From positions 27,560-91,559 of the forward strand of contig LEKP01000004.1 in assembly GCA_001443025.1 (NCBI GenBank): a DNA stretch of 64,000 bases. The letters are read 5' to 3'. The translations under genes and the position numbers were made by a program. Positions 3,687-14,514 of this stretch are shown one piece after another (position 1 is the first letter of the stretch; every line of letters starts with the position of its first letter). The notes beneath the pieces are model-generated. The model worked only from the letters and a program-made list of their open reading frames with translations. It searched no databases and was not told the origin of the DNA. Origin of the DNA: Parcubacteria bacterium GBS-2. GTDB taxonomy: Bacteria; Patescibacteriota; Minisyncoccia; Minisyncoccales; GBS-2.

Positions 3687-5405
3687 TTGATGAAAGAAAA
3701 AATTAAAAAAACCCTCGAAGATTCAGTTAAGACTCTTTTCCCCGGCATAAAAATTCAAAAATTTCAAATTGAGCACCCAGAGAGAAAAGAGCTAGGAGAT
3801 TACTCGACAAATTTAGCTTTTTTAATTGCTAAAGAGTTAAAAGAAAAACCGATTGAAATAGCAAATCGAATCGCAACCTCGGTTAAGAAAGAAAAAATCT
3901 TTGAAAGAGTTGAAGTTAAAGAACCTGGTTTTATAAATTTTTTCTTTTCTTTAGATTTTTTCTTTAAAGAGTTAAAAAAGATTTTTAAAAAGAAAGAAAA
4001 TTACGGAAAAAGCAAAATTGGAAAAGGAAAAACAGTTATAATTGATTACTCTTCGCCAAACATTGCAAAACCTTTTGGAATCGGACATTTAAGATCCACA
4101 ATCATTGGCCAAGCCCTCTACAACCTTTACAAATTCCTAGGCTATAAAGTTATCGGGGACAATCATTTGGGAGATTGGGGAACCCAATTTGGAAAATTAA
4201 TCTTTGCAATAAAAAAATGGGGAAAAAAGAAAATTGATGATTATTCAGTTAATGAGTTAGAGGAGCTTTACGTGAAATTTCATAAAGAGGCAGAAAAAAA
4301 CCCTCAATTGGAAGAGGAAGGAAGGAAATGGTTTAAAAAATTAGAAGAGGGCGAAAGAGAAGCGAGGAAAATTTGGAAAACTTTAGTTAAAATCTCCTTA
4401 AAGGAATTTGAAAGAATTTATAATCTTTTGGGGGTTAAATTTGATGTAGTTTTGGGAGAGAGCTTTTATGAACCGATGCTAAAAGAAATAATCGAAGAAT
4501 TGAAAAAGAAAAAAATTGCAAAAGAAAGTCAGGGAGCGCTAATAATTGAATTTCCAAATAATGAATTCCCTCCAGTAATTGTTCAAAAATCTGATGGGAC
4601 GACAACTTATTTCACAAGAGATTTAGCAACAATAAAATACAGACTGAAAAGATGGAATCCAGATTTGATAATTTATGAAGTTGGAGTAGATCAGAAATTG
4701 CATTTTCAGCAACTTTTCAAGACAGTAGAGATTTTAAGATGGACTAAAAAAACAAAGTTCGTTCACGTTGCACATGGTTTGTATAGGACCAAAACTGGAA
4801 AATTCTCCACAAGAAAAGGAGAAACTGTCCATTTAGAAGATGTATTAAATGAGGCAATTGAAAGAGCAAGAGAAATCATTGAAAAGTCTGAAACCTCTCG
4901 GGGTTTAACAGAAAAGGAAAAAGAAAAAATTTCCAAAATTGTTGGGATTGGAGCAGTAAAATATAATGATCTTTCTCAGCACCCATCAAAAGACATAGTT
5001 TTTGATTGGGGGAAAGTTTTGAATTTGAAAGGAAATTCCGCTCCTTATTTACAATACACTTTTGTGAGATGCCAGAGCGTTTTGAGGAAGGCTAAAAAAT
5101 CACAAATTGAAAATTGTAAATTGCGAATCGAAAAGTTAAAGAAAGAAGAGATTGAGATTTTAAGAGAGATTTATAAGTTCCCAGAAATAGTCCAAGATGC
5201 AGCAGAAAAATTTTCTCCAAATTTGATTTGTAACTTTGTTTTTGAGTTAGCTAGAAATTATAACTTTTTTTACGATATATACCCTATTTTAAAGGCAGAG
5301 GACAAAGAAATAAAAAATTTTAGACTTCTTTTAACAAAGGCGGTTGCGCAAATTATCCAGAATTCATTATTTCTTTTAGGAATTGAAGTTCCAAAGAGAA
5401 TGTAA
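3687..5405 (+). CDS. argS: Arginyl-tRNA synthetase
   Basis: IDYSSPNIAKPFGIGHLRST (HIGH region), DGTTTYFTRDLA, and a C-terminal DALR-type anticodon-binding region ending in M. The start is probably the ATG at 3690. Confidence 0.95.
   Translation: MMKEKIKKTLEDSVKTLFPGIKIQKFQIEHPERKELGDYSTNLAFLIAKELKEKPIEIANRIATSVKKEKIFERVEVKEPGFINFFFSLDFFFKELKKIFKKKENYGKSKIGKGKTVIIDYSSPNIAKPFGIGHLRSTIIGQALYNLYKFLGYKVIGDNHLGDWGTQFGKLIFAIKKWGKKKIDDYSVNELEELYVKFHKEAEKNPQLEEEGRKWFKKLEEGEREARKIWKTLVKISLKEFERIYNLLGVKFDVVLGESFYEPMLKEIIEELKKKKIAKESQGALIIEFPNNEFPPVIVQKSDGTTTYFTRDLATIKYRLKRWNPDLIIYEVGVDQKLHFQQLFKTVEILRWTKKTKFVHVAHGLYRTKTGKFSTRKGETVHLEDVLNEAIERAREIIEKSETSRGLTEKEKEKISKIVGIGAVKYNDLSQHPSKDIVFDWGKVLNLKGNSAPYLQYTFVRCQSVLRKAKKSQIENCKLRIEKLKKEEIEILREIYKFPEIVQDAAEKFSPNLICNFVFELARNYNFFYDIYPILKAEDKEIKNFRLLLTKAVAQIIQNSLFLLGIEVPKRM
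5102..5136 (+). repeat. Heptanucleotide-periodic tract inside argS
   Basis: ACAAATT GAAAATT GTAAATT GCGAATC GAAAAGT, encoding QIENCKLRIEK. 19/23 identical to the leuS tract. Confidence 0.8.
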
Positions 5406-5569
5406 GGTCTTGACAAGAATTTTTGATTTTCTATAAAATTTTAAGTAGAAAAAAATGACATTAAGAAAAAAAATTTGTTTCGTCTTGATTTTGAGGCCTC
5501 TCGGGCTGGGAGGTTAAGTTGAAATTTTATCTACCCCAAACCTTAGCCTCCCAGCCAGGGAGGCTTTTT
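5403..5569 (+). promoter_or_regulatory. Copy A of a repeated promoter-plus-long-hairpin element (candidate leader or small RNA)
   Basis: TTGACA at 5410-5415 and TATAAAAT at 5432-5439. The 23-bp stem pairs GCCTCTCGGGCTGGGAGGTTAAG (5496-5518) with CTTAGCCTCCCAGCCAGGGAGGC (5542-5564), with 1 mismatch and 2 G:U pairs. A T5 run follows. Homologous to 13688-13870. Confidence 0.7.
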
Positions 5570-5614
5570 AAGTCTCCCTTTAGCACTTTCTATAGTTTTC
5601 TAGGGGGTGTTTTG

Positions 5615-6379
5615 ATGAAGTATTATTGGGGGTTGGAGGAAGCTAAACAAGAGCTTCAGCGAAGGCAGAGAGATGATAAATTGAGAGAAAAAGCAGAAAG
5701 TATACTTAAGGACTGTCCTCTTCCAGAGGGGCAGTATGGATTCTTGGCTAGACATGTTGCTAGTGCTCGATTTGAGGATGTACAGTTTCAGACACGTTGC
5801 AGAGAGAGTGGATTAAAGGCAATATGGCTGGAATTTTCAGAGGATAAATTTGTTACAGTGAATCCATCAAAAATGAGATTAATAAAGATTAGAGTTTACT
5901 GTGGAAAGGGTAAGAGAGGAGGAGACAAGCTTATTTCTGGATACCTGGTTGATCCGAGAAAACTAAATTTTCTAAATGGAGTACCAATGAATCGGATCTA
6001 TTGCAAAAACGGAGAGCCTTTGACAAAAGTTCATCGAGAGATGCGCAACAGTCTCGGACTTAACAATGGAAATGTTTTAGATATCTCCAAGTGGTTGAAA
6101 TCCATAGGGCCAGCAAAACAATATTATCCAAAGTTCTTCATGGCTTTGACCCACAGAGGCATTTTATTTGAAAGCTTTGAAAGTCCAGGATTTCCAACCT
6201 TAGATAAATTCAACGAAGAAGTAGTAATACCAGCGATTGAAGAGACCATAGAAAAACTTGGAGTAGAACCACTGATTGTCTACCATCCAACCTGTATTAG
6301 CTCAGAGGAAGAAGCAAAAATTTTAAATTACTATCCAAAAGAAGTTCTTTCCTACCTCAATACACAAGGGCTCATTTGA
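5615..6379 (+). CDS. Hypothetical protein, no family recognised; visibly higher GC than neighbours
   Basis: 254-aa ORF from the ATG at 5615, preceded by AGGGGG 7 nt upstream. The ORF track starts at the in-frame TTG at 5519, which is preceded by GGGAGG inside the hairpin, so the true start is ambiguous. It has its own terminator at 6387-6413. Confidence 0.7.
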   Translation: MKYYWGLEEAKQELQRRQRDDKLREKAESILKDCPLPEGQYGFLARHVASARFEDVQFQTRCRESGLKAIWLEFSEDKFVTVNPSKMRLIKIRVYCGKGKRGGDKLISGYLVDPRKLNFLNGVPMNRIYCKNGEPLTKVHREMRNSLGLNNGNVLDISKWLKSIGPAKQYYPKFFMALTHRGILFESFESPGFPTLDKFNEEVVIPAIEETIEKLGVEPLIVYHPTCISSEEEAKILNYYPKEVLSYLNTQGLI

Positions 6380-6386
6380 TTTTTTA

Positions 6387-6413
6387 AGGGGTCTTTAATG
6401 ACCCCTATTTTTA
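6387..6413 (+). terminator. Rho-independent terminator
   Basis: AGGGGTC-tttaat-GACCCCT followed by ATTTTTAT. Confidence 0.75.
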
Positions 6414-6429
6414 TACTAAAATTAATCCC

Positions 6430-7386
6430 ATGAGGAGAGAATTTGCTTATTTACTATTCATTAAAAATTTAATTAGCTTTTCTCCTCGACAGCTGGAAGG
6501 CGAACAAAAAGCGGGTGATTTCATTATTTCTTTTTTGGAAAAGTTTAAATTTCAATATAAACTGCAATATTTTTGGACAGAAGTTCCAAAAGTAGAAAAA
6601 GAAATTTTAATAGCTGATGGAAAGAAAATTGCTTGTAAAGGAACTTCTTTTGTTTCTGGAAAAGTAAGGGATAAAAACTATTTAATTAGTTCTTTAATTC
6701 CCTCGCGCTTTTTTCTTGATAAGTCAAATATAAATTTTAACCCAAAATCTCCAGGAATTTCTCTTTCTAATTTTTATTTTGCTCCAGCGATTGCAGTTTG
6801 TAGGGGTGATTTAAATTTGATATTAAAAGCAGAAAAGATCGAAGGAGAAGTGAGAGTGAAACCGGTAAGGTACAAGGCAAGAAACATTTTAGTGGGTAAT
6901 TTAAGAAATCCAAAGGTAATTTGTTTCGCTCATTACGACAGTATTGGAAAAGGAGCAGTTGATAATGCATCGGGAGTAGCAGTACTTTTGAGTACGCTTA
7001 TCTCTCATCCCTTTGTTTTAAAGGAAAATTTATTCGTTTTTTCGGCCAACGAAGAACTTTCCTATGATAAACCCACTTATTGGGGACATGGTTTCCGAGC
7101 TTTTGAAGAAGAATTTTTAAAAACTATGAAAAAAACTAAAAAAATTGTAGTGGTCGATTGTGTTGGCAATGGGAAAGCAAAAATTCTAAAAGACGAAGAA
7201 ATGATCTATTTAGCCTTCCCTATCAAAAATGCAAAGAAATTAAAAAACAAAATATCAATTCTTACAGGCGACCTTGAAAAATTAATGAGCGTTTATCACA
7301 GTGATTTAGATAATCTTAAACAAATTAGCGAAAAATATCTCAGAGAGGCAGAGAGGAAACTTTTAATGTTAATTAAACTGGGATAA
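6430..7386 (+). CDS. M28-family (aminopeptidase-like) zinc peptidase
   Basis: CFAHYDSIGKGAVDNASGVAVLL (His/Asp metal ligands), FSANEELS (Glu-Glu), VVDCVGNG and VYHSDLD together fit the M28 co-catalytic zinc ligand pattern. Confidence 0.65.
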   Translation: MRREFAYLLFIKNLISFSPRQLEGEQKAGDFIISFLEKFKFQYKLQYFWTEVPKVEKEILIADGKKIACKGTSFVSGKVRDKNYLISSLIPSRFFLDKSNINFNPKSPGISLSNFYFAPAIAVCRGDLNLILKAEKIEGEVRVKPVRYKARNILVGNLRNPKVICFAHYDSIGKGAVDNASGVAVLLSTLISHPFVLKENLFVFSANEELSYDKPTYWGHGFRAFEEEFLKTMKKTKKIVVVDCVGNGKAKILKDEEMIYLAFPIKNAKKLKNKISILTGDLEKLMSVYHSDLDNLKQISEKYLREAERKLLMLIKLG

Positions 7387-7407: not shown

Positions 7408-10400
7408 ATGGAAATTAATTTTCCAAAACTTGAAGAGAAAATTTTGAGATTTTGGAAGAAAAATAGGATTTTCGAGAAATCGATTGAAAAGAGGAGAAAA
7501 GATTTTGTATTTTATGAAGGTCCTCCGACTGCTAATGCGAAGCCGGGATTACATCATGTATTGAGTAGAGTCTTCAAAGATATAGTTTGCCGTTATAAAA
7601 CAATGGCAGGCTTTAGAGTTTTAAGAAAAGCAGGATGGGATACTCATGGATTGCCAGTTGAATTAGAAATAGAAAAGAAAATTGGAACAAAAACAAAAAA
7701 GGATATTGAAAAATTTGGAATAGAAAAATTCAATTTTTTGTGCAAAAAATCGGTATGGGAATACAAAAAAGATTGGGAAAAATTAACTGAAAGAATTGGT
7801 TTTTGGCTAGATTTGAAAAATCCTTACATTACTTATGAACCGGAATACATTGAATCAGTTTGGTTTTTATTGAAGAAAATTTATGAAAAGGGGCTATTGT
7901 ACGAAGAACTTAAAGTTTCACCCTATTGTCCTCGATGCCAGACAATTTTGTCTTCTCATGAAGTTGCCCAGGGATACAAAAGAATAAAAGAACCTGCAAT
8001 TTATGTAAAATTTAGAGTTTTAAATCCAGAGTACAAAAATTGTTCTCTTTTAGTTTGGACGACAACTCCTTGGACATTGCCAGGAAATGTTGCAATAGCA
8101 GTAAATCCAAATTTTGATTATTTATTTTTAGAAAAAGAGGGAGAAATTTTGATTTTGGCAAAAGAAAGGACAAAGGCATTGGGAATTGAAGGAAAGGTTT
8201 TAAAAGAGGTAAAGGGGAAAGATTTAATTGGTTTGAGATACCAGTCAGTTTTTGATTTTTATCAACCAGATTTTGAAAAAGAAAGAATTTGGGAGGTTTT
8301 GGGAGCAGAGTTTGTATCTTTGGAAGAGGGTACAGGATTGGTTCATATTGCTCCTGCTTTTGGTGAAGAAGATATGGAATTAATAAAAACTCAAAACTCA
8401 AAATTCAAAACTCAAAATCAGAAGAAATTTCCGGTGATTTTGAATGTTGATGAGGAAGGAAGGTTCAAATTAGAGGTTAAAAAGTTTGCGGGCCTTTTTG
8501 TGAAAGATGCAGATTCCCTGATAATTCAAGATCTGAAAGAAAGAGGACTTTTGTTTAAAGAAGAATTATATGAACACGATTATCCATTTTGTTGGAGATG
8601 TAAAACCCCTCTTTTGTATTATGCGAAAAGAAGTTGGTTTATAAGAATGAGTCAAGTAAAAGAAGATTTAATTAAAAACAACGAAAAAATAAATTGGATT
8701 CCAGAGCACATAAAAGAAGGAAGATTCGGTGAATGGTTGAGAGAAATAAAAGATTGGGCTTTATCAAGAGAAAGATATTGGGGTACTCCTTTACCAGTTT
8801 GGAAATGCGCAAACTGTAACAATATAGAAGTAATTGGGTCGATTAAAGAATTGATCTTAAAAAACTCTTCAAAAAACGTTTATTATCTTTTCAGGCACGG
8901 ACACTCTTTAAGACAGGAAATGAAAGTTATCTCTTGTTGGCCAGAAGAAAAACCTCTCACTTTAACTGAAAAAGGAAAAGAAGAGGTAAAAAGAGCAGCG
9001 CTTGAGTTAAAGAAGGAAAAAATTGATTTGATTTTTTCCTCAGATTTAATGAGAACAAAACAAACTGCTGAAATTTTAGCCAAAGAGTTAAAGGTAAGAG
9101 TTATTTTCGATAAGCGATTAAGGGAATTTAATGTTGGAATTTTTAACGGAAAGGATCCTTCTTTGTTTTGGGAGTACATTAAGGACAAAAAAGATCCGCT
9201 TTTTGTAAAAGCGCCGAGAGGAGAAAGCTTGGCTGATGTAAGAAAAAGAATGTATGAATTTTTGAGAAATAAAGAAAAGAAGTTTTCTGGGAAAAAAATT
9301 CTTCTTGTATCTCACGAACTTCCCTTAACTATTCTAGAAGGAACCTTAAAAGGACTTTCGTTGGAAGAAATCTTGGAAAAAAGAAGAAGCGGTAAATTTA
9401 AAACCTTAAAAACTGCTCAATGGAAGAAAGTAGAATTCAAAAGTTTACCTTTCAATGAAAAAGGGGAAATTGATCTTCACCGTCCTTTCATTGATGAAGT
9501 TTCTTTTAAATGTTCAGTTTGTCAAGGCGAAATGAAACGAACTCCAGAAGTAATCGATTGTTGGTTTGATTCTGGAGCAATGCCTTTTGCTCAGTACCAC
9601 TGGCCGTTTTCTGAAATTCCAAAATCCAAGCTCCAAACTCAAAAATTAAAACCGCCAAAGTTATTCCCCGCAGATTACATTTGTGAAGGAATAGATCAAA
9701 CAAGGGGTTGGTTTTATACTCTTTTGGCTATTTCCACCTTAATGGGATTTGGCCCTTCTTATAAAAACGTTATTTCTTTAGGGCACGTTTTGGATGAAAA
9801 AGGGGAAAAAATGTCAAAATCAAAGGGAAATGTGGTTGATCCTTGGTATGTTATTCAGAAGTATGGCACCGAAGCAACAAGATGGTATTTTTTCACTATT
9901 AATCAACCAGGAAATCCCAAACTTTTTTCTGAAAAAGATGTGGCTGAAAGTTTTAAAAGATTTATTTTAACTTTTTGGAACTGTTATTTATTCTTTGATA
10001 CTTACGGAGAAAAGAAAGTTATCGCTACTTCAAGATCGAAGAATGTTTTAGACAGATGGATCATTTCGGAGTTAGAGAGTCTCATTCAAGAAGTATCTGA
10101 AAGTTTGGAAAAATACCACATTACCAAAGCAGCAAGAGTGATTGAAAAATTTGTGGTTGATGATCTTTCGTTGTGGTATATCCGTAGATCAAGAAAAAGA
10201 TTTCAGAAACCAAAAACTCAAAGAGAACTAAAAGAGGCTTCCCAAACTTTGAAATTTGTCTTTTTGAATTTATCAAAAATTTTAGCCCCGTTTTTGCCAT
10301 TTCTATCGGAATTTATTTATCAAAAGATTAAAGGATACAATTTTAAAAGTTCAAATTCTGTCCATTTGGAAAATTGGCCTAAAGTTAATGAAAAACTGAT

Positions 10401-10950
10401 TGATAAAAGGTTAGAAGAAAAGATGGAAAAAGTAAGAAACATTACCTCTTTAGCATTAGCAGAAAGACAAAAAGCAAGAATAAAAGTAAGACAACCATTG
10501 AGCGAATTACAGATTAACGAGACTCAGTTAAAAGATGAAGTAGAGTTGTTAGAGTTAATAAAAGAAGAAGTTAATGTAAAGAAAATAAGCTTTGGAGAGA
10601 AAGTTAAATTAGATACCACAATTACTCCAGAATTAAAAGAAGAAGGAATATTAAGAGAGATAATTCGGCATATTCAGGAAATGAGAAAAGAGTTAAGGTT
10701 AAAACCAAGAGATAAAATTTCAGTTGGGTATTTTGGCGAAGAAGCTATTTCAAAAATTCTAGAAAAAAATAAACAAAATTTCTTGAAAGAGGCGAGGGTT
10801 TTTGATTTAAAAGAACAAGAGGGAGAATACGATTTAGAAAAAGAAATAAAGGTCGACAACAAAAAAATAATCTTGGCAATTAAAAAGATAAATGCAAAAC
10901 ATTCCTCCACCAATTCAACCAAGACCAAAAGCCCCAGAAAGACCTCCTGA
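7408..10950 (+). CDS. ileS: Isoleucyl-tRNA synthetase (type 2-like) carrying an internal ~190 aa extra domain
   Basis: PPTANAKPGLHHV (HIGH), the editing domain WTTTPWTLPGN, zinc knuckles CWRCKTP and CANCNN, KMSKSKGN, and ICEGIDQTRGWFY. At 1180 aa it is about 150-200 aa longer than I expect for this type. Confidence 0.95.
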   Translation: MEINFPKLEEKILRFWKKNRIFEKSIEKRRKDFVFYEGPPTANAKPGLHHVLSRVFKDIVCRYKTMAGFRVLRKAGWDTHGLPVELEIEKKIGTKTKKDIEKFGIEKFNFLCKKSVWEYKKDWEKLTERIGFWLDLKNPYITYEPEYIESVWFLLKKIYEKGLLYEELKVSPYCPRCQTILSSHEVAQGYKRIKEPAIYVKFRVLNPEYKNCSLLVWTTTPWTLPGNVAIAVNPNFDYLFLEKEGEILILAKERTKALGIEGKVLKEVKGKDLIGLRYQSVFDFYQPDFEKERIWEVLGAEFVSLEEGTGLVHIAPAFGEEDMELIKTQNSKFKTQNQKKFPVILNVDEEGRFKLEVKKFAGLFVKDADSLIIQDLKERGLLFKEELYEHDYPFCWRCKTPLLYYAKRSWFIRMSQVKEDLIKNNEKINWIPEHIKEGRFGEWLREIKDWALSRERYWGTPLPVWKCANCNNIEVIGSIKELILKNSSKNVYYLFRHGHSLRQEMKVISCWPEEKPLTLTEKGKEEVKRAALELKKEKIDLIFSSDLMRTKQTAEILAKELKVRVIFDKRLREFNVGIFNGKDPSLFWEYIKDKKDPLFVKAPRGESLADVRKRMYEFLRNKEKKFSGKKILLVSHELPLTILEGTLKGLSLEEILEKRRSGKFKTLKTAQWKKVEFKSLPFNEKGEIDLHRPFIDEVSFKCSVCQGEMKRTPEVIDCWFDSGAMPFAQYHWPFSEIPKSKLQTQKLKPPKLFPADYICEGIDQTRGWFYTLLAISTLMGFGPSYKNVISLGHVLDEKGEKMSKSKGNVVDPWYVIQKYGTEATRWYFFTINQPGNPKLFSEKDVAESFKRFILTFWNCYLFFDTYGEKKVIATSRSKNVLDRWIISELESLIQEVSESLEKYHITKAARVIEKFVVDDLSLWYIRRSRKRFQKPKTQRELKEASQTLKFVFLNLSKILAPFLPFLSEFIYQKIKGYNFKSSNSVHLENWPKVNEKLIDKRLEEKMEKVRNITSLALAERQKARIKVRQPLSELQINETQLKDEVELLELIKEEVNVKKISFGEKVKLDTTITPELKEEGILREIIRHIQEMRKELRLKPRDKISVGYFGEEAISKILEKNKQNFLKEARVFDLKEQEGEYDLEKEIKVDNKKIILAIKKINAKHSSTNSTKTKSPRKTS
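8386..8420 (+). repeat. Heptanucleotide-periodic tract inside ileS (first)
   Basis: AAAACTC AAAACTC AAAATTC AAAACTC AAAATCA, encoding KTQNSKFKTQNQ. Confidence 0.85.
8866..9462 (+). other. Histidine-phosphatase superfamily (PGAM-like, branch 1) domain inserted in-frame within ileS
   Basis: Motifs in order: YYLFRHGHS (RHG), LTEKGKEEV, IFSSDLMRTKQTAEILA, DKRLREFNVGIFNG, APRGESLADVRKRMYEFL, ILLVSHELPLTIL. The insert is flanked by the IleRS segments WKCANCNNIEVIGS and IDLHRPFIDEV...VIDCWFDSG. Confidence 0.8.
9615..9656 (+). repeat. Heptanucleotide-periodic tract inside ileS (second)
   Basis: AATTCCA AAATCCA AGCTCCA AACTCAA AAATTAA AACCGCC, encoding IPKSKLQTQKLKPP. Confidence 0.8.
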
Positions 10951-11281
10951 AAGAAAACCGTCACTTTTTAACTCGAAAGGCTACATAGAGAGAAAATTTT
11001 TTGAAAGAGAATTTCGAGAAGATAAGTATTATGAAAAATGGAGAATTTCTCAAAAAGAAAGAGAAGAAATAGGAAGAACTATAGGGCAGCTTTTTGGAGA
11101 GCTAATAGGAAAGTCGGAAGAGACTAAAATACTTTCTTTGGCAGAAAGACTTCAAAAAGGAGAGTACTATTTACCTCCAGACGAAAAAATTAAAAAAGCA
11201 GCAGACGAAATTATTAAGAAATATGGTCGCGAAAAGGCTCAGGTGATTGGTAAAACTCTAAAAGAACTTCTCGGAAAATAA
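10892..11281 (+). CDS. Hypothetical small charged protein with a Pro-rich N-terminus
   Basis: 129-aa ORF that overlaps the ileS 3' end by 59 nt. No recognisable motif. Confidence 0.45.
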   Translation: MQNIPPPIQPRPKAPERPPERKPSLFNSKGYIERKFFEREFREDKYYEKWRISQKEREEIGRTIGQLFGELIGKSEETKILSLAERLQKGEYYLPPDEKIKKAADEIIKKYGREKAQVIGKTLKELLGK

Positions 11282-11284
11282 GAA

Positions 11285-12007
11285 ATGTTCCTTCGCTATC
11301 GAACTTTAGGATTTGTTTTTAAAAAGGAAGATAAAGGAGAGGCAGACCAGATTTTTAAAATTTTTACAAAAGATTTTGGAAAAGTTGAAGTCCTAGCAAA
11401 AGGAATCAGAAAAATTTCTTCAAAACTAAGGCCTCAAATCGACATTTTTTATCTTTCTGAAATTGAATTTATTCAAGGAAAAATCTATAAAAGATTGATC
11501 GGTGCTTTCTGTGTTGAAAAGTTTAAAAACTTAAGAAGAAGTTTTAAAAGGCTATCAATTGCTTATCAAACTTGCGAAGCTTTGGATAAATTGATAAAAG
11601 GAGAGGAGAAAGATGAAAGAATTTGGAAATTAATCTTGGAAGTTTTCATAAGTTTGGATAAAGAGAAATTTAAGGTTTGTAGTCTTGTTTATTTTTATTT
11701 TTTCTGGAAACTTGCTTCAATTTTAGGTCACAAACCAGAACTTTACTTTTGTTGCGGTTGCCAAAAAAGACCAGAGTTAAAGAAAGTGTATTTTAACCCG
11801 GGAGAAGGAGGTATAATCTGTCAAACTTGCTTTTCAAGAATAAAACAAGGAGAGGAGGTTAGCCAGAATTTAATTAAAATTTTGAGAATAATTTTAGAAA
11901 AAAACCTCGAGTTTCTGAAAAAAGTGAAGGCTAGAGAGAAGGTTGTTGAAGAGTTAAAGGAAATTTCAAATTCTTATTTCTTGTTTTTAACTCAAAACAA
12001 TGTTTAG
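11285..12007 (+). CDS. recO: DNA repair protein RecO
   Basis: OB-fold N-terminus (GFVFKKEDKGEADQIFKIFTKDFGKVEVLAKGIRK) and a Cys4 zinc motif CCGC...CQTC. Confidence 0.85.
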   Translation: MFLRYRTLGFVFKKEDKGEADQIFKIFTKDFGKVEVLAKGIRKISSKLRPQIDIFYLSEIEFIQGKIYKRLIGAFCVEKFKNLRRSFKRLSIAYQTCEALDKLIKGEEKDERIWKLILEVFISLDKEKFKVCSLVYFYFFWKLASILGHKPELYFCCGCQKRPELKKVYFNPGEGGIICQTCFSRIKQGEEVSQNLIKILRIILEKNLEFLKKVKAREKVVEELKEISNSYFLFLTQNNV

Positions 12008-13871: not shown

Positions 13872-14514
13872 ATTTGATTTATTTTAGTATTTATTGCCAA
13901 TCCAAACAATCCCACTGGTTTGTTCGAAGAAAAAGAGAAAATGCTGAACTTAGTGAAAAGATCAAAAAGCATTTTTGTTGTTGATGAAGCAGGAATTGAT
14001 TTTGAAGAAAATTATTCTTTAGTTTACGAAGCTCCCAAACTTAAGAATCTAATTGTTTTAAGGAGTTTATCTAAAGGGTATGGAATGACTGGATTGAGAA
14101 TTGGTTTTTGTGTAAGTTGTGAAAAAATAATCAAAAAATTATCCCTTTATAAAATTCCTTTTTCACTTTCGAGTGTCGCGGTAGAAGCTGGAATTTTAGC
14201 ATTAAATGATGATTTTCATTTGAAAAAAGTAAAAGAATTTTTTAAAAAAGAGAACGAATTTCTATCAGAGAATCTAAAAAAATAGGCCTTGATCCTTGCT
14301 GATTGAAAGTAATTCAATTTTAGCGAAAATAAATCCAATTTTTAGTTCAGCCAAAGAGCTATTAGAAGAATTTTTGAAACATGGAGCAAGTTGTGTAGAC
14401 GGAAGGCATTTTGGCTTACCAAAATTTATTCGAATTTGTCCTAAGGACCACCTTACCAATCAGAAATTTATTGATATAATTACTAAAATAGTAAATCAAA
14501 GGGCCAAAAAATAA
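13872..14514 (+). pseudogene. Decayed class I/II aminotransferase (HisC/CobD-like): 5'-truncated and frameshifted
   Basis: The frame opens right after the TAA at 13869-13871 and reads LIILVFIANPNNPTG, a motif normally about 90-100 aa into the protein. It contains SLSKGYGMTGLRIGF (PLP-Lys region). The frame breaks at the A7 run near 14276. The C-terminal part (SNSILAK...FIRICPKD) continues in another frame at 14296-14514. Confidence 0.8.

What the first reader, a model, noticed from the sequence alone, without database searches (positions are those of the whole stretch)
8866..9462. Catalytically intact histidine-phosphatase (PGAM-like) domain inserted in-frame inside isoleucyl-tRNA synthetase
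The ileS ORF (7408-10950, 1180 aa) is continuous and contains all the usual IleRS landmarks. In IleRS as I know it, only a short linker separates the zinc-knuckle segment WKCANCNNIEVIGS from LHRPFIDEV...CQGEMKRTPEVIDCWFDSG. Here about 190 aa sit between them.

The inserted segment carries the full ordered signature set of histidine-phosphatase superfamily branch 1:
- LFRHGHS, the RHG nucleophile His.
- SSDLMRTKQTA, the second Arg.
- RLREFNVGIFNG, the Glu proton donor.
- GESLADVRKR.
- LLVSHELP, the second His.

None of the catalytic positions is degraded, so the domain looks functional rather than a relic. Codon usage looks the same as the rest of ileS.

I do not know of a phosphatase domain embedded in the body of an aaRS. 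It could act on an aaRS side product such as Ap4A or another phosphorylated nucleotide, or on a phosphorylated tRNA end, or it could be a regulatory module. These roles are pure speculation.
Basis: partly seen in the sequence, partly recalled or inferred. Interest (0 to 1): 0.8.

Follow-up and report, generated by a model that had tools for sequence, protein, structure and literature searches.

The report
Active phosphatase domain nested inside IleRS
An apparently working phosphatase enzyme is built into a surface loop of the essential isoleucine-charging enzyme of this tiny-genome (CPR) bacterium, and in sister lineages the same phosphatase is a separate gene glued to the front of that enzyme's gene, so the two proteins evidently belong together for a reason nobody has yet described.

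Summary
ORF 7408-10950 is one uninterrupted type-2 IleRS (TIGR00392, 913 bits). About 203 aa (residues 485-687, nt 8860-9468) replace a loop of about 9 aa between the two Cys pairs of the CP3 zinc knuckle. The insert is a branch-1 histidine phosphatase (PF00300, E 1e-31; AF2 pLDDT 94).

It is not an artefact or a relic. 58 species-level CPR genomes carry the same insert at the same site in single ORFs. The catalytic Arg, His, Arg and His are invariant, and the proton donor is always Glu or Asp. dN/dS is 0.07-0.18, the same as the IleRS core.

The main new finding is linkage. In 21 further genomes the homologue is a free 190-aa gene sitting between argS and ileS, usually overlapping or within a few nt of the ileS start. 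No locus has both forms. 79 of 80 relatives are ileS-linked. Some IleRSs carry 2-4 copies, at CP3 and at other loops.

Best reading: a dedicated IleRS partner phosphatase, here fused. Its substrate is unknown. Main rival: a housekeeping phosphatase that is merely co-expressed. I found no published description.

The parts
7408..10950 (+). ileS: one continuous ORF of 1180 aa, a type-2 isoleucyl-tRNA synthetase with a nested phosphatase domain
   Evidence: ORF; tRNA-synt_1, Anticodon_1, DUF5915; TIGR00392 at 912.7 bits; best PDB matches are 1ILE and 8C8U-type IleRS2.
7408..8859 (+). IleRS N-terminal part (aa 1-484): first half of the Rossmann fold, CP core, CP1 editing domain (WTTTPWT), CP2, the CP2-3 linker (DWALSRERYWGTPLP) and the first strand of CP3
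   Evidence: alignment to Tt IleRS residues 7-478. Domain names taken from PMC7191050 and PMC7955072.
7546..7557 (+). GLHH (aa 47-50) in place of the class-I HxGH signature
   Evidence: alignment (Tt has HVGH). GxHH in 56 of 57 fused enzymes. GXHH is a documented IleRS2 variant (PMC10485003).
8806..8817 (+). First Cys pair of the CP3 zinc knuckle (C467-A-N-C470)
   Evidence: Both Cys are invariant in 59/59 fused enzymes. They align to Tt C461/C464.
8860..9468 (+). Inserted histidine-phosphatase (branch 1) domain, aa 485-687
   Evidence: PF00300, E=8.8e-31. AF2 pLDDT 94.3. Foldseek probability 1.0 to TIGAR, PspA, PhoE, GpgP and CobC. Boundaries.
8860..8886 (+). N-terminal linker (aa 485-493, KNSSKNVYY); family consensus QKFS.N.Y[FY]
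   Evidence: N490 in 58/59, Y492 in 56/59; pLDDT 84 for block 481-490.
8893..8901 (+). RHG motif: Arg496, the nucleophile His497 and Gly498
   Evidence: R and H are invariant in all fused and free copies. Aligns to PhoE R10/H11.
9052..9054 (+). Arg549, the second phosphate-pocket arginine
   Evidence: Invariant.
9124..9126 (+). Glu573, the general acid/base of the RLRE motif
   Evidence: E in 50 and D in 9 of 59 fused copies; E in 22 and D in 1 of 23 free copies. Aligns to the PhoE RLRE motif.
9313..9315 (+). His636, the second catalytic histidine (SHE motif)
   Evidence: Invariant.
9424..9468 (+). C-terminal linker (aa 673-687, KKVEFKSLPFNEKGE); family consensus RK.EFK.LP[YF]N..[MG]E
   Evidence: P681 in 59/59, N683 in 47/59, E687 in 51/59. 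Absent from the free-standing proteins, which end at ...KTGELRKL.
9511..9522 (+). Second Cys pair of the CP3 zinc knuckle (C702-S-V-C705)
   Evidence: Invariant in 59/59. Tt equivalents are C502/C504.
9469..10947 (+). IleRS C-terminal part (aa 688-1180): rest of CP3, second half of the Rossmann fold, KMSKS (nt 9808-9822), anticodon-binding domain and the type-2 C-terminal domain
3687..5405 (+). argS, the conserved upstream neighbour. In unfused relatives the free phosphatase gene lies between argS and ileS.
   Evidence: Pfam. (synteny).
5519..7386 (+). Two ORFs (286 aa with no Pfam match; 318 aa M28-peptidase-like) that occupy the argS-ileS slot in this genome in place of a phosphatase gene
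   Evidence: no second phosphatase copy anywhere in the 64-kb window.
11285..12007 (+). recO, the conserved downstream neighbour and part of the same synteny block

Best explanation
The segment is a catalytically competent PhoE/PspA-like histidine phosphatase of about 200 aa, nested in the hairpin loop of the zinc-binding CP3 subdomain of a type-2 (GXHH) IleRS. It is the fused form of a dedicated IleRS partner. In sister CPR lineages the same protein is made from a small gene lying between argS and ileS and translationally coupled to ileS. In this lineage its whole coding sequence sits about 1.45 kb further downstream, inside ileS, joined by short conserved linkers.

Inferred mechanism: His497 attacks a phosphomonoester held by Arg496, Arg549 and His636. 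Glu573 protonates the leaving group and then activates water to release phosphate from the phospho-histidine intermediate.

Because the domain is held in a fixed way on CP3, right after the CP2-3 linker that lines the tRNA A76 pocket, I infer that it acts in cis on a phosphorylated nucleotide-type ligand produced or bound at the aminoacylation site. My sub-estimates are about 0.25 for a small nucleotide or by-product (AMP-like, or possibly a phosphoanhydride such as PPi), about 0.2 for a 2'/3'-phosphorylated tRNA acceptor end, and the rest for something else.

Shown: domain identity, intact catalytic set, purifying selection, insertion site, distribution, operon linkage, mutual exclusivity of the two forms. 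Inferred: physical partnership of the free form with IleRS, action in cis, and the substrate.
For: - Identity and integrity: PF00300 at E=8.8e-31. AF2 pLDDT 94.3. Foldseek probability 1.0 to branch-1 phosphatases. Catalytic R/H/R/H invariant and E/D conserved in 59 fused and 23 free copies and in 31 fragments.
- Selection: insert dN/dS 0.07-0.18 against core 0.05-0.15 in 7 close pairs. Insert pairwise identity 0.50, comparable to the editing (0.56) and anticodon-binding (0.54) domains.
- Real and widespread: 58 of 80 GTDB species loci have the same insertion as a single ORF. 77 of the best 150 cluster representatives are IleRS carrying the phosphatase.
- Partnership: 21 of 80 loci have a free gene immediately upstream of an insert-less ileS. 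Among 23 unfused loci the stop and start overlap (-4 or -1 nt) in 7, are 1-16 nt apart in 11, and are 32-50 nt apart in 2. Only 1 of 80 has no ileS nearby. No locus has both forms. In most fused genomes with argS upstream the argS-ileS slot is short: <=25 nt in 16 of 36 and <=230 nt in 26 of 36.
- Selection for tethering: extra intact copies occur in tandem at CP3 and at three other IleRS loops (P0258, P0276, P0322, P0357). Linkers are conserved (P681 59/59, N490 58/59, D689 58/59) and confidently modelled.
- Site: CP3 is a structurally variable subdomain, and the CP2-3 linker lines the tRNA/reveromycin pocket (PMC7191050, PMC7955072).
- Charge: net +17 over 203 aa. Only 7% of 46 window ORFs reach that charge density.
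Against: - No activity, substrate or interaction data exist.
- I could not read model coordinates, so the distance and orientation of His497 relative to the synthetic site and tRNA path are untested.
- The nearest characterised relatives are ordinary small-molecule metabolic phosphatases at only 20-29% identity.
- Gene fusions are common in these compact genomes. TsaC is fused to many unrelated partners, and an ArgRS-phosphatase fusion (P0230) could be simple read-through of adjacent genes. Adjacency alone could therefore explain why ileS became the recipient.
- The one unlinked homologue sits next to metK and a glycerate kinase (L056), which hints at a metabolic role.
- The survey covers only the closest 80 of 257 GTDB relatives.
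- I know of no histidine-phosphatase-superfamily enzyme that acts on RNA 3' ends (own knowledge).
Confidence: 0.55

Rival explanations
1. Hitch-hiking housekeeping enzyme. The domain is an ordinary small-molecule phosphatase or mutase of central metabolism (PhoE-, PspA- or phosphoglycerate-type). It merely shares an operon with ileS and was inserted into a tolerant surface loop during genome compaction. It works independently of aminoacylation.
For: - The closest solved relatives are small-molecule enzymes: PspA 4IJ5, PhoE 1EBB/1H2E, TIGAR, GpgP, CobC.
- CPR genomes of this group fuse many unrelated genes: TsaC with MGMT-like, TruB, CPDase, GNAT and NUDIX domains, and ArgRS with the phosphatase.
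- CP3 is structurally variable and tolerant (PMC7191050).
- The one unlinked copy lies beside metK and a glycerate kinase.
- A donor gene lying right next to ileS makes a local rearrangement into ileS mechanistically easy.
Against: - 79 of 80 relatives are ileS-linked across lineages whose IleRS cores are only about 60% identical.
- The two arrangements are mutually exclusive.
- Intact copies were gained repeatedly at four different IleRS loops and in tandem.
- The linkers are conserved.
- Scores lie far below the cut-offs of every characterised equivalog family: dPGM, GpmB, CobC, PspA, SixA.
- The domain is unusually basic for a metabolic phosphatase.
Confidence: 0.3
2. Non-hydrolytic module. 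The domain serves as a ligand sensor or regulator, binding a phosphorylated metabolite to tune IleRS, or as an extra tRNA-binding or structural element. The phosphate-binding residues would be kept for binding rather than turnover.
For: - The domain is strongly basic.
- The linkers are fixed and conserved, suggesting a defined geometry.
- aaRS are known to recruit appended domains for tRNA binding or regulation (own knowledge).
Against: - The whole catalytic set is conserved in more than 80 copies and in the extra copies, including the nucleophile His and the acid/base Glu/Asp, which are not needed for mere binding.
- The free-standing form is a complete stand-alone enzyme.
Confidence: 0.08
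3. Artefact. The insertion is an assembly chimera, a hidden frameshift, or a decaying pseudogene fragment.
For: Some public fragments are split: L001 by a scaffold gap, and L002-L004 in frameshift-rich long-read assemblies.
Against: - 58 independent species-level assemblies have the same single ORF.
- dN/dS is about 0.1.
- Composition is uniform across the gene.
- Catalytic residues are invariant.
Confidence: 0.01

Closest known systems
PhoE/YhfR (Geobacillus stearothermophilus, PDB 1EBB/1H2E) and PspA phosphoserine phosphatase (Hydrogenobacter thermophilus, PDB 4IJ5/4IJ6)
   Same: Same fold and size (about 200 aa with a small cap). Same ordered catalytic residues: RHG, second Arg, RLRE-type Glu, second His. 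Foldseek probability 1.0, TM 0.72-0.73, rmsd 2.4-2.6 A.
   Different: Only 26-29% identical. Those are free-standing metabolic enzymes with no link to translation. This domain is nested in, or operon-coupled to, IleRS, is strongly basic, and scores far below the PspA equivalog cut-off (76 against 350 bits).
Type-2 IleRS (T. thermophilus 1ILE; Priestia megaterium IleRS2 8C8U-8C9D)
   Same: All IleRS domains are present, including the type-2 C-terminal domain (DUF5915), the editing motifs, KMSKS and the Zn-binding CP3. GXHH is a documented IleRS2 variant.
   Different: 203 aa replace the loop of about 9 aa between the two Cys pairs of CP3. None of the solved IleRS chains matched has an insertion at this loop.
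NCBIfam NF040702 'ileS_w_GNAT' (IleRS containing an N-acetyltransferase domain)
   Same: It is a precedent for an IleRS that carries an unrelated enzymatic domain. One relative (P0363) carries both the phosphatase and a GNAT.
   Different: The extra domain is a GNAT, not a phosphatase. The window protein scores 302 bits against a cut-off of 1999. I did not determine where the GNAT sits in that family.
CP1 editing domain of class Ia aaRS
   Same: The design principle is the same: a hydrolytic domain nested in the Rossmann fold through a connective-peptide insertion, so that it can act in cis on what the synthetic site makes (established knowledge; domain map in PMC7191050).
   Different: CP1 is universal in IleRS, ValRS and LeuRS and hydrolyses aminoacyl esters. 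This domain is lineage-specific, sits in CP3, and has phosphomonoesterase chemistry. Action in cis is inferred here, not shown.
HD phosphohydrolase domain of bacterial CCA-adding enzyme (own knowledge, not tested here)
   Same: It is a tRNA-3'-end enzyme carrying an appended phosphatase / 2',3'-cyclic phosphodiesterase that is thought to heal damaged tRNA ends. That makes it an analogy for the tRNA-end reading.
   Different: It has a different fold (HD rather than histidine phosphatase), is appended at an end rather than nested, and belongs to a different host enzyme.

Membership tests
Histidine phosphatase superfamily, branch 1 (Pfam PF00300) | Significant match to the family HMM above the gathering threshold | tested here: met
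   107.5 bits in the full protein and 111.8 bits for the isolated segment, against a cut-off of 21.7; E=8.8e-31 and 4.2e-32.
Histidine phosphatase superfamily, branch 1 (Pfam PF00300) | RHG motif with the nucleophilic His near the N-terminus of the domain | tested here: met
   R496-H497-G498. Aligns to PhoE R10/H11. Invariant in more than 80 homologues.
Histidine phosphatase superfamily, branch 1 (Pfam PF00300) | Second Arg, second His, and an acidic proton donor at the aligned positions | tested here: met
   R549, H636 and E573. R and H are invariant; the donor is E or D in all copies.
Histidine phosphatase superfamily, branch 1 (Pfam PF00300) | Alpha/beta phosphoglycerate-mutase-like fold | tested here: met
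   AF2 pLDDT 94.3. Foldseek probability 1.0 and TM 0.71-0.77 to many solved members.
Histidine phosphatase superfamily, branch 1 (Pfam PF00300) | Phosphatase or mutase activity through a phospho-histidine intermediate | not testable with these tools
   Needs an enzyme assay.
Cofactor-dependent phosphoglycerate mutase (dPGM; TIGR01258, NF038349, GpmB NF002901) | Score above the curated equivalog or subfamily cut-off | tested here: not met
   For the isolated segment: NF038349 79.9 against 225, NF002901 76.5 against 261, TIGR01258 42.3 against 81.7.
Alpha-ribazole phosphatase CobC (TIGR03162) | Score above the curated equivalog cut-off | tested here: not met
   83.9 bits against 162.9. It is still the best-scoring NCBIfam phosphatase model.
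Phosphoserine phosphatase PspA (NF045917) | Score above the curated equivalog cut-off | tested here: not met
   75.7 bits against 350.
Phosphohistidine phosphatase SixA (TIGR00249) | Score above the curated equivalog cut-off | tested here: not met
   34 bits against 74.5, and only the N-terminal part matches.
Isoleucyl-tRNA synthetase (TIGR00392) | Score above the equivalog cut-off, with class-I motifs and editing motifs present | tested here: met
   912.7 bits against 621.4. KMSKS, WTTTPWT and a GLHH variant of HIGH are present.
Type-2 (eukaryote-like) IleRS, IleRS2 | Type-2 C-terminal domain without the C-terminal zinc-binding domain; closest to Tt IleRS and PmIleRS2 rather than to IleRS1 | tested here: met
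   PF19302 DUF5915 at aa 975-1160. 1ILE at 850 bits and 8C8W at 847 bits, against S. aureus IleRS1 1FFY at 308 bits. The GXHH motif is reported only in IleRS2 (PMC10485003).
ileS_w_GNAT (NF040702) | Score above the cut-off; GNAT domain present | tested here: not met
   302 bits against 1999. No GNAT domain in the window protein.

The most novel reading that the evidence does not exclude
IleRS in these CPR bacteria is a two-activity machine. The embedded or partnered phosphatase would act on the tRNA acceptor end, removing a 2'/3'-phosphate or pyrophosphate left by nucleases or by toxin kinases / pyrophosphokinases. Alternatively it would act on a nucleotide by-product at the synthetic site. 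Either way it would be a second, lineage-specific 'CP-inserted hydrolase' analogous to the editing domain. The repeated gain of extra copies at several IleRS loops would then reflect selection for this coupled activity.
Probability: 0.2. Interest if true: 0.9.

Novelty: new variant of a known kind. Interest (0 to 1): 0.72.

Why it matters
Aminoacyl-tRNA synthetases are among the most conserved enzymes known, and catalytic domains nested in their core are very few; the editing domain is the classic case. Here a complete, selected phosphatase is nested in the catalytic core of IleRS. It is linked to IleRS in two interchangeable genetic arrangements across many CPR species and is multiplied up to four-fold in some. 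That implies an unrecognised phosphate-removing step tied to isoleucine charging in a major, poorly understood branch of bacteria. The fused and unfused pairs form a natural 'Rosetta stone' that makes the question directly testable with recombinant proteins. The case also shows that the CP3 zinc-knuckle loop is a permissive site for domain insertion, which is useful for engineering. If instead the phosphatase turns out to be a metabolic enzyme that merely hitch-hikes, it would be a striking example of genome compaction by nesting one enzyme inside an essential one.

Tried and rejected
- A broad 77-sequence domain alignment (A1) was too diverse for the genome scan. A tighter one (A2) worked.
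- Fusion fragments on long contigs (L002-L004) come from frameshift-rich or end-duplicated assemblies and say nothing about real gene splits. The 'split' in L001 is a scaffold N-gap.
- The protein search index returned only proteins under 600 aa, so I took full-length examples from genome loci instead.
- Neighbour-joining trees of the 200-aa phosphatase domain are unresolved. The first was also biased, because its free-standing members were chosen for similarity to the window insert.
- The IleRS-core tree puts 57 of 59 fused enzymes in one clade, but bootstrap support is weak. L047 shares HYGH and KMSKR with its unfused neighbours yet has the common linker motif. I therefore cannot say whether there were one or several CP3 insertions, or in which direction the change went.
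- My scripts could not read model coordinates, so I could not measure the distance between the two active sites.
- Membership in the dPGM, GpmB, CobC, PspA and SixA families was tested and rejected on curated cut-offs.
- I considered the TsaC-phosphatase fusion as support for an 'adenylate-forming enzyme' theme and then down-weighted it. Only 4 clusters exist, and TsaC is fused to many unrelated domains in these lineages.
- Six literature searches and a term search inside a 2026 IleRS preprint found no description of an IleRS-phosphatase architecture. PMC6429109 proved irrelevant.
- An mafft --auto run timed out and was replaced by a faster mode.
Full report
**Observation**

The + strand ORF 7408-10950 is continuous and encodes 1180 aa. 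Pfam finds tRNA-synt_1 split into two stretches, Anticodon_1, DUF5915, and His_Phos_1 at aa 493-655 with E=8.8e-31. NCBIfam's ileS equivalog scores 912.7 bits against a cut-off of 621.4.

Against T. thermophilus IleRS (1ILE), query residue 484 aligns to Tt 478 and query 688 to Tt 488. About 203 residues (aa 485-687, nt 8860-9468) therefore replace a loop of about 9 residues. The loop lies between two Cys pairs, C467xxC470 and C702xxC705, which correspond to Tt C461/C464 and C502/C504. The structural literature places this segment in the CP3 subdomain. That subdomain binds zinc in Tt IleRS, has a different topology in each solved IleRS, and directly follows the CP2-3 linker that lines the tRNA-A76/reveromycin pocket (PMC7191050 and PMC7955072). 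G+C is uniform across the gene.

**Is the domain intact and real?**

The isolated insert folds with mean pLDDT 94.3. It matches branch-1 histidine phosphatases with Foldseek probability 1.0: TIGAR, PspA, a riboflavin-pathway HFP, GpgP, PhoE and CobC. By sequence the closest solved proteins are PspA (4IJ5, E=9e-14) and PhoE (1EBB), and the RHG, Arg, RLRE and His motifs fall on their catalytic positions.

It reaches none of the curated cut-offs for dPGM, GpmB, CobC, PspA or SixA. It is therefore a generic PhoE-like member, not an identifiable equivalog of a characterised enzyme.

A junction-spanning search found 51 public IleRS fragments with the insert at the same site. A scan of one genome per GTDB species found 257 relatives. 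Of the best 80, 58 have the domain inside ileS at the same loop, each as a single uninterrupted ORF (roughly 1130-1250 codons where complete). Another 21 have it as a separate gene, and 1 has no ileS in the locus.

- Insert length is 197-210 aa. Unfused enzymes have 5-16 aa at that loop.
- Arg12, His13, Arg65 and His152 (insert numbering) are invariant in 59 fused and 23 free copies. The proton donor is always Glu or Asp.
- Nei-Gojobori dN/dS in seven close pairs is 0.07-0.18 for the insert and 0.05-0.15 for the IleRS core.
- Mean pairwise identity of the insert (0.50) is like that of the editing (0.56) and anticodon-binding (0.54) domains.

Chimerism, hidden frameshifts and decay are therefore excluded. 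The apparent splits in some public contigs are a scaffold gap (L001) or error-rich assemblies.

**The key new finding**

Three free-standing homologues taken from long contigs all lie immediately upstream of an insert-less ileS of 959-975 aa, in the order argS, phosphatase, ileS, small ORF, recO. The genome survey generalises this. In 23 unfused loci the phosphatase stop and the ileS start overlap by 4 or 1 nt in 7, lie 1-16 nt apart in 11 and 32-50 nt apart in 2. One ORF intervenes in the remaining 3. argS lies directly upstream in 19 of 23.

In fused genomes the argS-ileS slot is usually empty: 25 nt or less in 16 of 36, and 230 nt or less in 26 of 36. In this window it holds two unrelated ORFs, and there is no second phosphatase copy in the 64 kb. 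No locus has both an upstream gene and an insert.

So the same protein is delivered with IleRS in two mutually exclusive ways, as a translationally coupled neighbour or as a nested domain. Overall, 79 of 80 close relatives are ileS-linked. The free proteins end at ...KTGELRKL. The fused forms continue with a conserved linker, RK.EFK.LP[YF]N..[MG]E.D.HRP, in which P681 is 59/59 and D689 is 58/59. They begin with QKFS.N.Y, in which N490 is 58/59. Both junctions are confidently modelled in the full-length prediction (pLDDT 82-90; overall 84.6, pTM 0.71).

**Further variants**

An exhaustive phmmer search of 1.84 billion cluster representatives gave 1257 hits at E<=1e-10. I classified the best 150:

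- 73 are IleRS with one phosphatase copy.
- 3 are IleRS with two copies.
- 1 is IleRS with four copies.
- 69 are free-standing.
- 4 are other architectures.

The extra copies sit in tandem at CP3 and at three other IleRS loops, near window aa 415, aa 736 and aa 868-877. Every complete copy keeps the catalytic set. Other partners also exist:

- an ArgRS-phosphatase C-terminal fusion (P0230);
- a TsaC/Sua5-phosphatase fusion (P0295);
- a partial IleRS with the phosphatase plus a GNAT domain and an IS200-like stretch (P0363).

I down-weight the TsaC case. Only 4 clusters exist, and TsaC in these lineages is fused to many unrelated domains.

**Evolution**

In a neighbour-joining tree of the IleRS core, 57 of 59 fused enzymes form one clade, and the unfused ones are paraphyletic under midpoint rooting. 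Bootstrap support is weak. L047 (fused) shares HYGH and KMSKR with its unfused neighbours but has the common linker motif. The phosphatase trees are unresolved. The number and direction of the events remain open.

**Mechanism**

Established chemistry of the superfamily gives the catalytic cycle. His497 is phosphorylated by a phosphomonoester held by Arg496, Arg549 and His636. Glu573 acts as the acid/base.

What the domain acts on is unknown. Several observations favour a functional partnership with IleRS:

- the near-obligate linkage to ileS;
- the mutual exclusivity of the two arrangements;
- the repeated gains of extra copies;
- the conserved linkers;
- the position of the insert next to the CP2-3 linker.

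The domain is also strongly basic: net +17 over 203 aa, a charge density reached by only 7% of the window's ORFs. I put this reading at 0.55, with a nucleotide-type by-product or a phosphorylated tRNA acceptor end as the leading substrates.

The main rival, at 0.3, is an ordinary metabolic phosphatase that is merely co-expressed and was nested into a tolerant loop. It is supported by the identity of the nearest solved relatives, by the general tendency of these genomes to fuse genes, and by the one unlinked copy beside metK and a glycerate kinase. I could not read model coordinates, so the geometry relative to the synthetic site is untested.

**Novelty**

The architecture is present, unremarked, in many public MAG annotations such as 'isoleucine--tRNA ligase' and 'class I tRNA ligase family protein'. 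Six literature searches, plus term searches inside the two most relevant IleRS papers, found no description of it. NCBIfam's 'ileS_w_GNAT' is the nearest catalogued precedent. I rate it a new variant of a known kind, namely an aaRS with a recruited domain, and of high interest to specialists.

Noticed in passing
window 7546-7557 (aa 47-50 of IleRS): The class-I HxGH signature reads GLHH. GxHH is found in 56 of 57 fused and 17 of 23 unfused relatives. It is the documented non-canonical IleRS2 motif that confers mupirocin hyper-resistance (PMC10485003).
   Followed up: partly
L005, L006, L007 and 9 other unfused loci (IleRS position equivalent to window aa 801-805): A clade of 12 unfused CPR IleRSs has EMHKS where the KMSKS loop motif should be, losing the first Lys. 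They also share a conserved 14-aa CP3 loop (AVSGW..F.GHSPHRPW).
   Followed up: no
P0258, P0276, P0322, P0357 (cluster representatives): These are IleRS proteins with two to four intact histidine-phosphatase domains. The copies sit in tandem in CP3 and at three other loops (near window aa 415, 736 and 868-877).
   Followed up: partly
P0363 (1066 aa, partial): This IleRS has an IS200-like Y1 transposase match (aa 340-461) inside the editing-domain region, a phosphatase in CP3, and a GNAT acetyltransferase (aa 935-1063) inserted after the WFDSG...PF loop.
   Followed up: no
P0230; P0295 and P0365-P0367; other hits: There is an ArgRS-phosphatase C-terminal fusion and there are TsaC/Sua5-phosphatase fusions. 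TsaC in these CPR lineages is a fusion hub, joined to MGMT-like (PF01035), TruB, 2H/CPDase, GNAT, NUDIX and DNA-glycosylase domains.
   Followed up: partly
L056:720-1283: This is the only close homologue not linked to ileS. It lies between metK and a glycerate kinase (DUF4147/MOFRL), next to pyruvate:ferredoxin oxidoreductase genes.
   Followed up: partly
window 10892-11281: A 129-aa ORF with no Pfam match overlaps the 3' end of ileS by 59 nt. A small ORF without Pfam hits (87-161 aa) occupies the same place between ileS and recO in relatives (L001, L004-L007).
   Followed up: no
window 13920-14285: A 121-aa ORF matches only positions 167-291 of the 361-position class I/II aminotransferase model. 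It is probably a gene fragment or pseudogene.
   Followed up: no
L005:1313-2819: A bAvd-like gene and a reverse transcriptase (RVT_1), followed by a 1015-aa ORF, lie just upstream of the phosphatase-ileS pair. This looks like a diversity-generating retroelement.
   Followed up: no
L002:7807-8752: The end of the contig carries an inverted duplicate of part of the ileS-phosphatase region. It is most likely an assembly artefact.
   Followed up: no
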